64,000 bases of DNA from Escherichia coli. GTDB lineage: Bacteria; Pseudomonadota; Gammaproteobacteria; Enterobacterales; Enterobacteriaceae. Shown piece by piece: positions 57,472-58,137 of the stretch. Position 1 is the first letter of the stretch; every line of letters begins with the position of its first letter. The notes beneath the pieces are model-generated. The model had not been told where the DNA came from, ran no database searches, and saw only the letters and a list, made by a program, of their open reading frames with translations. Made by a program: the position numbers and the translations under genes. The DNA lies in the NCBI RefSeq assembly GCF_030384885.1, contig NZ_CP128613.1, one strand, 5' to 3'.

Positions 57472-58137
57472 TTATAAATTACCTTCAATCATGATATTCT
57501 GATATTTGTTTAAGAGCGGTTTCATCCACTCAATAACATACTTAATGAATTCTGCATATTCGGTATTTGTTTGTGCCTTAGCTAACCATTGTTCAATTAT
57601 CTTTGCGCATTCATCTGAGGTAAATTCATTCCAGCTTGTGTAATCAAAAAATGTTTCACCATTGGCTAAAGGGTATAGTGACTTAATAGCCGGGGATAGT
57701 ATTTCAAAATCGCACTCATAAATAAAAAGACTAGCAACATTGTAATCCCATCCACCGTTAGGTTCCTCCTTGTAAGGATAGATAGAACAACCAATACGTC
57801 CATCACTACGGCGATGTTTTTTACGCAGAAAAATACGATGGCTTTTTTCGTATGCGTCAGTGTAATAATCGGGAACAGGTTGACTAAGAGCTGCACTGAA
57901 TGCTGTCAAAAATTTATCCCGTTCTTGTGGATGCATTTCCCGGTTGCATTGATAATTGATATTTATGTAATTATCTGTCCAGGAAATGTTACACATGTGA
58001 TTTTTGCTATTTACACAAAGTTCTGAGTTGGTAATGACTTCATTTATTTGCTGTATGCCCCAGTATTCACGGAAGAGCTCAAGTATTCTGATTTGTTGTT
58101 CTGCAATGCATATTGTTGTGTTGGTTGTGATTATCAT
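57472..58137 (-). CDS. Hypothetical protein, 221 aa, no recognisable motif
   Basis: Uninterrupted ORF on reverse strand 59 bp downstream of the 417-aa gene; AT-rich; weak RBS. Confidence 0.45.
   Translation of the reverse strand: MIITTNTTICIAEQQIRILELFREYWGIQQINEVITNSELCVNSKNHMCNISWTDNYININYQCNREMHPQERDKFLTAFSAALSQPVPDYYTDAYEKSHRIFLRKKHRRSDGRIGCSIYPYKEEPNGGWDYNVASLFIYECDFEILSPAIKSLYPLANGETFFDYTSWNEFTSDECAKIIEQWLAKAQTNTEYAEFIKYVIEWMKPLLNKYQNIMIEGNL

What the first reader, a model, noticed from the sequence alone, without database searches (positions are those of the whole stretch)
57472..58137. AT-rich 221-aa orphan ORF downstream of the DUF1963-like gene
No recognisable motif, AT-rich codon usage unlike the neighbouring core genes, and only a weak ribosome-binding site. 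It could be a genuine accessory protein (for example an immunity-type partner of the upstream gene) or a decaying remnant.
Basis: inference. Interest (0 to 1): 0.35.

Follow-up and report, generated by a model that had tools for sequence, protein, structure and literature searches.

The report
Real, rare accessory gene beside hemF
The AT-rich 221-codon reading frame is a genuine, selectively maintained gene for a soluble protein of an uncharacterised and very rare family, found in a strain-variable gene hotspot between hemF and eutR; it is neither a decaying remnant nor an obligate partner of the DUF1963 gene, and its function is still only inferred.

Summary
The ORF exists as described (57472-58137, minus strand, 221 aa, GC 0.36, weak RBS, no database motif). 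It is a real gene. Full-length orthologues occur down to 46% identity. dN/dS is 0.14-0.26, and no shuffle of the AT-rich segment reaches this length. The family is tiny: 26 clusters among 1.84 billion representatives, and 11 of 5426 complete E. coli genomes. It has no Pfam, NCBIfam, PADLOC, PHROG or PDB sequence match. A confident AlphaFold model (pLDDT 94) has a generic TBP/KA1-like N-domain. Its conserved ~90-residue C-terminal module always ends in GNL-COOH.

In Enterobacteriaceae the gene always lies just downstream of hemF, while its neighbours change: DUF1963, a YpfK-like gene, an SNF2 helicase, TacAT, Tli3/Sel1, or nothing. DUF1963 occurs without it in 17 E. coli genomes, and it occurs without an intact DUF1963 gene in three lineages. 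The proposed pairing therefore fails.

Distant relatives in Bacteroidota sit in the operon RNA ligase-X-HD-Pnk; another lies in a defence island. My best guess, at low confidence, is a binding or accessory factor of nucleic-acid (RNA) damage and conflict responses. An orphan immunity protein is the main rival. Interest is modest.

The parts
57472..58137 (-). Gene X: 221-aa ORF (stop codon 57472-57474). It encodes a soluble, mildly acidic protein (pI 5.1) of an uncharacterised family.
   Evidence: ORF listed. Orthologues of 46-84% identity, full length. dN/dS 0.14-0.26. Shuffle test. Annotated 'hypothetical protein' in RefSeq. pI.
57874..58137 (-). Codons 1-88: N-terminal alpha+beta domain (strand, helix, four-stranded antiparallel sheet, helix). 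It has a TBP-like/KA1-like fold and is the variable part of the family.
57475..57750 (-). Codons 130-221: the conserved C-terminal module (beta-alpha-alpha-beta-alpha-alpha-beta). D143 and N170 are invariant, F144, D165, T167, F197 and W204 are conserved, and the C-terminus is always ...GNL.
   Evidence: Alignments A4 and A5. Column counts: D143 25/25, N170 25/25, L221 25/25, G219 and N220 24/25. 22 of 25 members end in GNL. Some 105-151-aa proteins consist of little more than this module.
58138..58196 (-). 59-nt spacer between the DUF1963 stop and the start of gene X. It has only a distant weak Shine-Dalgarno-like run and no predicted promoter or terminator on this strand, so co-transcription with DUF1963 is likely (inferred).
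   Evidence: Sequence. Promoter/terminator scan. Orthologues differ here: strong AAGGAG in L005, and a 1-nt gap (stop to start) with the YpfK-like gene in L004, suggesting translational coupling.
58197..59450 (-). Upstream neighbour: a 417-aa DUF1963 (TYPP-domain) protein with an N-terminal CxxC...CxxC zinc finger. It is not an obligate partner of gene X.
   Evidence: Pfam PF09234 E=3e-5. TYPP superfamily, family-2 architecture (PMC4275035). Present in 28 of 5426 E. coli genomes, of which 11 also carry gene X.
56637..57437 (+). Convergent neighbour: a 266-aa Tli3-family (T6SS lipase-immunity) gene with a signal peptide. No effector gene lies beside it, so it is an orphan immunity gene.
   Evidence: Pfam PF24316 E=4e-16. 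RefSeq name 'T6SS immunity protein Tli3 family protein'. Tle3/Tli3 biology from PMC9860674 (abstract seen).
55819..56640 (+). Sel1-repeat gene broken into two ORFs (55819-56175 and 56203-56640). This is the decaying gene of the island.
   Evidence: Both pieces hit Sel1. E. albertii has a single 287-aa gene. The tblastn match to that gene is split in the near-identical metagenome copy of this island, L020.
55736..59588 (.). A 3.85-kb strain-variable island between the convergent stop codons of eutR and hemF. K-12 has 5 bp here.
   Evidence: K-12 annotation and junction alignment. At least six different cargo arrangements at this site.

Best explanation
Gene X is a functional, stand-alone accessory gene. 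It is the most persistent resident of a variable 'conflict-gene' hotspot immediately downstream of hemF. It encodes a cytoplasmic two-domain protein of a previously undescribed family.

Shown: the gene is real, is under purifying selection, evolves several times faster than its core neighbours, and has no fixed neighbour. The conserved part of the family is a ~90-residue C-terminal module with an invariant polar constellation (D143, D165, T167, N170, N220 and the terminal Leu carboxylate). The N-terminal domain is exchangeable.

Inferred: the C-terminal module is a ligand-, metal- or partner-binding unit, and the N-terminal TBP/KA1-like domain is an adaptor, possibly for RNA. The protein would act as an accessory or protective factor in nucleic-acid (most likely RNA) damage and conflict responses. 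This rests on two kinds of context. Its full-length distant homologues are wedged, with overlapping reading frames, between a minimal ATP-dependent RNA ligase and an HD-Pnk end-healing enzyme in Bacteroidota. Other members lie in a defence island and, in Escherichia, beside a tRNA-acetylating TacAT module or a ZorD/DpdE-like SNF2 helicase.

In this window the gene is probably co-transcribed with the DUF1963 gene from a promoter upstream of that gene (possibly reading through from hemF) and poorly translated from a weak RBS.
For: Real gene:
- full-length orthologues; dN/dS 0.26 against E. albertii, 0.21 against E. whittamii and 0.14-0.15 against more distant ones.
- dN is 3-9 times that of hemF in the same genome pairs.

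Conserved position but changing neighbours.

Family definition and invariant residues.

Confident model.

RNA-repair operon (RNA_ligase PF09414, then X, then HD+AAA_33):
- Seen in three independent loci: L017/L018 (Dysgonomonas MAG), L019 and L008.
- The ligase and X frames overlap by 11 nt.
- Homology of these proteins to the enterobacterial profile over the whole length: E=2e-14, 5e-11 and 2e-9.
- The Lig/HD-Pnk pair is an experimentally studied candidate RNA-repair cluster. Its ligase adenylylates but does not seal the tested substrates (PMC6097658).

Other contexts:
- Defence island for P0012: PDC-S11 nuclease, Mrr/PDC-S02, TerD, Macro.
- TacA/TacT beside X in E. whittamii.
- SNF2 helicase with ZorD/DpdE-like helicase core, convergent with X.

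Fold: the N-domain resembles the RNA-binding KA1 domains of TUT1 and METTL16, among many generic hits.
Against: - No ligase or HD-Pnk gene lies near the gene in any enterobacterial locus. The operon evidence comes from relatives only 24-27% identical.
- The N-domain that resembles KA1 is not the conserved part of the family.
- Other contexts (polC-X-rimP; UDG-X in Listeria; hemF-X-maeB) are housekeeping and uninformative.
- No biochemical or expression data exist.
- The invariant polar residues could equally mark an enzyme active site, so 'non-catalytic binder' is an assumption.
Confidence: 0.3

Rival explanations
1. Orphan immunity protein. X binds and neutralises a toxin domain delivered by competitors (T6SS, CDI or another polymorphic toxin) and is kept without its toxin, like the neighbouring orphan Tli3 gene.
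For: - The window island carries a Tli3-family immunity gene and a Sel1-repeat gene but no effector.
- X is AT-rich, fast-evolving and patchily distributed. Two alleles only 56-57% identical occupy the same locus within E. coli.
- The protein is small, soluble and mildly acidic, with swappable N-terminal domains.
- One relative (P0024) lies in a 16-gene, one-directional, tightly packed array of small unknown genes (DUF5071, DUF4304-like, DUF6348). DUF6348 is also a near neighbour of P0012.
Against: - No toxin or effector gene is adjacent in any of about 12 contexts examined.
- No member matches any Pfam Imm, SUKH or Tli family.
- Stable synteny next to hemF across several genera is unusual for orphan immunity cassettes.
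- The Tli3 and Sel1 genes are on the opposite strand and are absent from most loci that hold X.
- The Bacteroidota members are embedded in an enzyme operon, not a toxin locus.
Confidence: 0.22
2. One reading: X is the dedicated partner (immunity or antitoxin-like, or co-functioning subunit) of the upstream DUF1963/TYPP protein.
For: - Same strand, 59-nt gap, no intervening promoter or terminator predicted.
- The same adjacency occurs in E. albertii.
- All 11 complete E. coli genomes with X also carry DUF1963 somewhere in the island.
- TYPP domains are predicted protein-protein interaction modules (PMC4275035).
Against: - 17 of the 28 E. coli genomes with DUF1963 lack X and have a 105-aa YpfK-like gene directly downstream instead.
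- In nine genomes the two genes are separated by an opposite-strand 3.45-kb SNF2 gene.
- X persists where DUF1963 is reduced to a 67-aa stub (L004) or is absent (E. whittamii, L005).
- DUF1963 is not a toxin family.
- No non-enterobacterial X locus has a DUF1963 neighbour.
Confidence: 0.08
3. X is a component or regulator of an uncharacterised SNF2-helicase-based defence system: the cassette X, convergent SNF2, with or without DUF1963 and the YpfK-like gene.
For: - X and the 1149-aa DUF8276-DUF3670-SNF2 gene are neighbours in two different gene orders: E2348/69 and L002, with a 4-bp overlap of their 3' ends, and L004.
- The helicase core resembles ZorD, DpdE and DrmD.
Against: - The two genes are convergent, so they are not an operon.
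- SNF2 is absent from the window, E. albertii, E. whittamii and L005.
- No PADLOC model matches X, DUF1963 or the YpfK-like protein.
- X is absent from phage and plasmid collections, which neither supports nor excludes a defence role.
Confidence: 0.1
4. X is a non-functional remnant, or a spurious ORF in horizontally acquired AT-rich DNA.
For: - Weak RBS and very low GC.
- Dispensable: absent from 99.8% of complete E. coli genomes.
- A few database copies are truncated or frameshifted: P0007, P0008, and 154-aa forms in TW10509 and Escherichia sp. 94.0001.
Against: - Intact frames across saturated synonymous divergence, with dN/dS 0.14-0.26.
- 88 invariant residues among six enterobacterial sequences that are 56-84% identical to the window protein.
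- Homologues in Firmicutes and Bacteroidota share the same invariant residues.
- An AF2 model with pLDDT 94.
- The ORF length is far beyond the shuffle expectation.
Confidence: 0.03

Closest known systems
Bacterial Lig/HD-Pnk candidate RNA-repair cluster (Runella slithyformis HD-Pnk plus adjacent ATP-dependent ligase-like protein; Munir & Shuman, as summarised in PMC6097658)
   Same: Distant full-length homologues of X (P0015, P0019, P0022) are encoded between a PF09414 RNA-ligase gene and an HD+P-loop-kinase gene of the HD-Pnk type. The reading frames overlap or nearly abut.
   Different: In the described Runella cluster the ligase ORF overlaps HD-Pnk directly, with no X-like gene between. 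The window and all enterobacterial loci have neither ligase nor HD-Pnk next to X. X has no detectable similarity to ligase, kinase, phosphoesterase, Tpt1 or Hen1 families.
Orphan T6SS / polymorphic-toxin immunity genes (for example Tli3, Imm52, SUKH/SMI1-KNR4 families)
   Same: X is a small soluble protein that is AT-rich, fast-evolving and strain-variable. It lies in an island that also carries an orphan Tli3-family gene. One relative sits in a long one-directional array of small unknown genes.
KA1 / TBP-like alpha+beta domains (TUT1 and METTL16 KA1 domains, BDI_3606 TBP-like protein, Bet v 1-like helix-grip proteins)
   Different: Sequence identity is 5-17% and there is no profile match. The fold is very common, and this domain is the non-conserved part of the family.
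DUF1963 / TYPP-domain proteins (YwqG, TSR4, PDCD2; Burroughs & Aravind 2014)
   Same: The immediate upstream gene in this window belongs to this superfamily and may be co-transcribed with X.
   Different: X itself is unrelated to TYPP. The usual downstream partner of this DUF1963 gene in E. coli is a 105-aa YpfK-like gene, not X.

Membership tests
Known polymorphic-toxin / T6SS immunity families (Pfam Imm*, SUKH/SMI1_KNR4, Tli, barstar) | Significant profile match to a described immunity family | tested here: not met
   hmmscan of the window protein and of 25 family members against Pfam-A found no immunity family at E<=0.1. hhalign of the C-terminal module against barstar gave probability 0.1%.
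Known polymorphic-toxin / T6SS immunity families | Gene lies directly next to (usually downstream of) its cognate toxin or effector gene, or inside a toxin-immunity array | tested here: not met
   No toxin or effector domain was found beside X in the window or in loci L002-L009, L011, L013-L015, L017, L019. L014 is an array of unknown genes, which is suggestive only.
Known polymorphic-toxin / T6SS immunity families | Protein binds and neutralises the toxin | not testable with these tools
   Needs co-expression, competition or binding experiments.
   28 E. coli genomes have DUF1963. Only 11 of them have X, and the two genes are adjacent in only 2. X occurs without an intact DUF1963 gene in L004, L005 and L009.
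Lig/HD-Pnk RNA-repair cluster | Gene is encoded in one operon with a PF09414 RNA ligase and an HD-domain + P-loop polynucleotide kinase | tested here: not met
   Not met for the window gene, whose neighbours are DUF1963 and Tli3. Met for distant homologues in L008, L017/L018 and L019.
Lig/HD-Pnk RNA-repair cluster | Protein participates biochemically in RNA end-healing or sealing | not testable with these tools
   Requires reconstitution with purified ligase, HD-Pnk and X.
Known anti-phage defence systems (PADLOC-DB v2) | Match to a defence-protein model and presence of the system's other genes | tested here: not met
   No PADLOC hit for X, P0012, P0022, P0024, DUF1963, the YpfK-like protein or Tli3. 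Only the SNF2 helicase core of other loci matches ZorD, DpdE and DrmD.
Type II toxin-antitoxin module | Small adjacent toxin/antitoxin pair with recognisable families | tested here: not met
   X has no TA-family match. The TacA/TacT pair beside X in E. whittamii is complete by itself.
EF-hand-like metal-binding loop (in the C-terminal module) | Dx[DNS]x[DNS]Gx[ILV]xxxE loop with a significant profile match | tested here: inconclusive
   The profile of the C-terminal module gives sub-threshold hits to EF-hand proteins (best E=0.044). The conserved FDxT[SG]xNx[FI]xxx[ED] motif fits positions 1, 3, 8 and 12, but has N instead of G at position 6 and a variable position 5.
KA1 / TBP-like fold (N-terminal domain) | Structural superposition with a convincing score over the whole domain | tested here: inconclusive

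The most novel reading that the evidence does not exclude
The GNL-tail family is a missing third component of the bacterial ligase/HD-Pnk RNA-repair pathway. It would be a substrate-recognition or activating subunit: a KA1-like RNA-binding N-domain plus a conserved docking or metal-binding C-module. That could explain why the minimal 235-aa ligase adenylylates itself but does not seal the model substrates tested. On this reading, the Escherichia copy next to hemF is a stand-alone version that protects or marks damaged RNA during ribotoxin, toxin-antitoxin or phage conflict.
Probability: 0.12. Interest if true: 0.6.

Novelty: new member of a known kind. Interest (0 to 1): 0.3.

Why it matters
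If the present reading holds, the practical value is threefold:
1. It turns an 'orphan ORF' into a defined, alignable protein family with a confident structural model and a short list of invariant residues to mutate.
2. It documents the hemF/eutR junction as a hotspot. K-12 has 5 bp there. Other Escherichia carry TA modules, orphan immunity genes, an SNF2 helicase or TYPP proteins at this site.
3. It gives a concrete, testable link between this family and the incompletely understood ligase/HD-Pnk RNA-repair clusters.

For genome annotation, the gene should be kept as a real CDS rather than flagged as a pseudogene. By itself it is an ordinary uncharacterised accessory gene.

Tried and rejected
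- Sequence-family searches on X and its relatives (Pfam, NCBIfam, PADLOC, PHROGs, PDB sequence profiles) gave nothing significant.
- The first AF2 model, from 6 sequences, was mediocre (pLDDT 70). I replaced it with a 25-sequence model (pLDDT 94).
- Barstar-like idea for the C-terminal beta-alpha-alpha-beta-alpha-alpha-beta module: the topology resemblance came from memory. hhalign gave probability 0.1%, so I dropped it.
- Phage or plasmid origin: no homologue in IMG/VR, INPHARED phages or PLSDB plasmids.
- Wider context sampling:
  - The genome-contig scan found a single species representative, E. whittamii.
  - The metagenome scan found only three E. coli-type loci.
- Rfam found no RNA family in the island.
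- Literature: no paper mentions DUF6348, DUF5071 or DUF4304 or a hemF-eutR island. The Munir & Shuman 2017 paper was not held.
- Pairing with DUF1963 was tested and rejected by co-occurrence.

Full report
**Setting.** The window is an Escherichia chromosome segment. It contains eutB-eutC-eutL-eutK-eutR (51186-55735, + strand). A 3.85-kb insert follows, and then hemF, amiA, ypeA, yfeZ and yfeY (59589 onward). In K-12 the stop codons of eutR and hemF are 5 bp apart. Everything from 55736 to 59588 is therefore strain-variable cargo. The cargo consists of:
- a Sel1-repeat gene split into two ORFs (55819-56175 and 56203-56640, +);
- a Tli3-family T6SS immunity gene (56637-57437, +; Pfam E=4e-16);
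- the target ORF (57472-58137, minus strand);
- a 417-aa DUF1963 gene (58197-59450, minus).

**Check of the observation.** All the stated facts hold.
- The ORF has 221 codons and GC 0.359 (GC3 0.324). Compare 0.50 for DUF1963, 0.55 for hemF and 0.53 for the window as a whole.
- It starts 59 nt after the DUF1963 stop on the same strand.
- Its only Shine-Dalgarno-like run is 13-22 nt from the ATG.
- No motif was found in Pfam, NCBIfam, PADLOC, PHROGs or PDB sequences.
- The ORF is not a chance product of AT-rich DNA. The probability of 221 stop-free codons at this composition is 7e-8. In 2000 shuffles the longest stop-free run averaged 73 aa and never exceeded 151.

**Is it a gene?** Yes.
- A search of 5.8 billion protein clusters found full-length 221-223-aa relatives at 84% (E. 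albertii), 77%, 72%, 62% and 57% identity. The 72% locus, L009, is E. whittamii.
- An exhaustive HMM search added full-length relatives: P0009, 46% identical, from another enterobacterium, plus 39% and lower outside the family Enterobacteriaceae.
- The six orthologous enterobacterial genes compared at the DNA level have no internal stops.
- dN/dS against the window copy is 0.26 (E. albertii), 0.21 (E. whittamii) and 0.14-0.15 for more distant ones, with synonymous sites near or at saturation.
- The protein evolves fast. Its dN is 3-9 times that of hemF in the same genome pairs.
- A few database copies are truncated or frameshifted (P0007, P0008, and 154-aa forms in TW10509 and another strain). 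The gene is therefore dispensable and is occasionally lost.
- Public records call the protein 'hypothetical protein'.

**How rare is it?**
- Only 26 clusters reach E<1e-3 among 1.84 billion representative proteins.
- One of 100,044 species-representative genomes has it.
- Three metagenome contigs carry it, all E. coli-like.
- None was found in phage, viral-contig or plasmid collections.
- Among 5426 complete E. coli genomes, 2 carry the window allele and 9 carry a second allele. The second allele is 56-57% identical and saturated at synonymous sites. E2348/69 is an example.
- The window allele occurs in cryptic-clade Escherichia such as TW10509. This fits hemF dS = 0.19 against K-12.

**Anatomy of the protein.**
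- With a 25-sequence alignment, AlphaFold gives pLDDT 94 and pTM 0.87.
- Residues 1-88 form a strand, a helix, a four-stranded sheet and a helix.
- This N-domain is not conserved across the family. Four members carry a UBA-like domain instead. Several 105-151-aa proteins consist of little more than the C-terminal part.
- The conserved core is residues ~130-221. D143 and N170 are invariant in 25 of 25 sequences. F144, F164, D165, T167, F197 and W204 are nearly invariant.
- The carboxy-terminus is ...GNL in 22 of 25 members, and L221 is the last residue in all 25.
- The motif FDxT[SG]xNx[FI]xxx[ED] gives sub-threshold matches to EF-hand loops (best E=0.044). This is a lead, not a finding.
- A barstar-like reading of the module's topology was tested by hhalign and failed.
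- The proteins are soluble and mildly acidic (pI about 5).

**Gene neighbourhoods.** In every enterobacterial locus, X lies downstream of hemF on the same strand, but the company changes:

| Locus | Arrangement |
|---|---|
| Window, E. albertii | hemF, DUF1963, X, then Tli3 and Sel1 on the opposite strand |
| E. whittamii | hemF, TacA, TacT (GNAT), X |
| L004 | hemF, 67-aa stub of DUF1963, YpfK-like, X (1-nt gap), then convergent SNF2 |
| E2348/69, L002, L021, L022 | hemF, X, convergent SNF2 (4-bp 3' overlap in E2348/69), DUF1963, YpfK-like |
| L005 | hemF, X, maeB; no eut genes between and nothing else |

- Seventeen further E. coli genomes carry hemF, DUF1963 and the YpfK-like gene without X.
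- X and DUF1963 are therefore separable in both directions. The usual partner of DUF1963 is the 105-aa YpfK-like gene.
- DUF1963 is a TYPP-domain protein predicted to mediate protein-protein interactions or act as a chaperone. It is not a toxin (PMC4275035).

**Contexts outside Enterobacteriaceae.**
- Two are uninformative: polC-X-rimP in a Firmicute, and UDG-X convergent with an RNase H gene (PF01351 RNase_HII) in Listeria costaricensis.
- P0012 lies in a defence-island-like row of genes: a PDC-S11 nuclease, TerD, AIM24, an Mrr/PDC-S02 gene and a Macro-domain gene.
- P0024 lies in a 16-gene one-directional array of small unknown genes that includes DUF5071 and DUF6348. DUF6348 also occurs near P0012.
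- The only recurrent operon is in Bacteroidota. P0015, P0019 and P0022 belong to three different 50%-identity clusters, one of them from a Dysgonomonas MAG.
- Each is encoded between a 235-aa PF09414 RNA ligase and a 370-aa HD + P-loop kinase of the HD-Pnk type. The ligase frame overlaps X by 11 nt.
- The ligase/HD-Pnk pair is the candidate RNA-repair cluster studied in Runella. There the two ORFs overlap directly, and the ligase-like protein adenylylates itself but seals none of the substrates tested (PMC6097658).

**Interpretation.** Shown:
- X is a real, selected, fast-evolving, dispensable accessory gene.
- It is the most persistent occupant of a hemF-proximal hotspot that otherwise collects conflict genes: a TA module, orphan immunity genes, and an SNF2 helicase with a ZorD/DpdE-like core.
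- The family is defined by a C-terminal module with an invariant polar cluster and a fixed C-terminus.

Inferred:
- The module is a binding or metal site, and the N-domain is an exchangeable adaptor.
- The protein serves as an accessory or protective factor in nucleic-acid (probably RNA) damage and conflict responses.
- My confidence is about 0.3. The operon evidence comes from 24-27% identical relatives, and no enterobacterial locus has a ligase or kinase nearby.

Rivals:
- An orphan immunity protein is the main rival (about 0.22). The island composition, the evolutionary tempo and the L014 array favour it. The absence of any adjacent toxin, of any Imm-family match and of mobility away from hemF count against it.
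- A role in an SNF2-based defence system (0.1) and the DUF1963-partner idea (0.08) are weaker.
- A dead remnant is essentially excluded (0.03).

**Expression in this window (inference).** No promoter-like or terminator-like site is predicted on the minus strand between the DUF1963 gene and X. X is therefore probably co-transcribed with DUF1963 and translated inefficiently. Orthologues use other solutions: a strong AAGGAG in L005, and a 1-nt stop-to-start gap suggesting translational coupling in L004.

**Verdict.** It is wrong on both specific alternatives, since X is neither a partner of DUF1963 nor a remnant. The gene belongs to a new, very small protein family in a familiar category, the strain-variable conflict-island gene. 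The RNA-repair link gives it one concrete experimental handle. Interest is modest.

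Noticed in passing
window 55819-56640 (+): The Sel1-repeat gene is broken into two ORFs (55819-56175 and 56203-56640). 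E. albertii has one intact 287-aa gene at the same place, and a second E. coli strain has it split differently. This gene, not the 221-aa ORF, is the decaying one.
   Followed up: partly
window 56637-57437 (+): A Tli3-family T6SS immunity gene with an N-terminal signal peptide and no Tle3 effector beside it. It is an orphan immunity gene, convergent with the target ORF (34 nt between the two stop codons).
   Followed up: partly
window 55736-59588; K-12 locus L016 3126-3130: The hemF/eutR convergent junction is 5 bp in K-12 but holds at least six different cargo sets in Escherichia and relatives: DUF1963 + YpfK-like; X + SNF2 + DUF1963 + YpfK-like; TacAT + X; DUF1963 + X + Tli3 + Sel1; and others. 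I found no paper describing this hotspot.
   Followed up: yes
window 58197-59450 (-); L010 1613-3233; L012 5000-6262: The DUF1963/TYPP gene has an N-terminal CxxC...CxxC zinc finger. In 26 of 28 E. coli genomes it is followed about 40 nt later by a 105-aa YpfK-like gene that is missing from this window. One strain (EC42405) has an internal stop in DUF1963.
   Followed up: partly
L017 7307-9982; L019 3395-5986; L008 1-2010: A three-gene operon in Bacteroidota: a minimal RNA ligase (PF09414, about 235 aa), an X-family protein, and an HD-Pnk-like enzyme. It is a variant of the Runella ligase/HD-Pnk repair cluster with an extra, undescribed gene in the middle.
   Followed up: partly
L011 6361-9810 (E. 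coli E2348/69); L002 8669-12118; L004 8802-12245: A 1147-1149-aa DUF8276-DUF3670-SNF2-helicase gene lies in the same hotspot, convergent with X (4-bp overlap of 3' ends in E2348/69). Only its helicase core matches the ZorD, DpdE and DrmD defence helicases. No known system is recognised.
   Followed up: partly
window 59589-60488 (hemF) and 54683-55735 (eutR): Synonymous divergence from K-12 is high for E. coli: hemF dS 0.19 and eutR dS 0.29. Identical or near-identical X proteins occur in cryptic-clade strains (TW10509, Escherichia sp. MOD1). The window probably comes from a cryptic Escherichia clade labelled E. coli.
   Followed up: partly
L014 641-10211; L015 2-856: DUF6348 proteins are near neighbours of X-family genes in two unrelated metagenome contigs. 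L014 is a 16-gene one-directional array of small genes with almost no family matches (DUF5071, weak DUF4304). It may be a poly-immunity or anti-defence array.
   Followed up: no
X family, residues 165-176 of the window protein (window 57610-57645, -): The conserved motif FDxT[SG]xNx[FI]xxx[ED] gives sub-threshold profile hits to EF-hand calcium-binding loops (best E=0.044). It may be a metal-binding loop.
   Followed up: partly
window 58120-58137 (-) against L003 8001-8018: Relative to E. albertii (ATGAAAATAAAAATCACA), the window gene starts ATGATAATCACA. This is an in-frame 6-nt deletion that removes two N-terminal codons.
   Followed up: no
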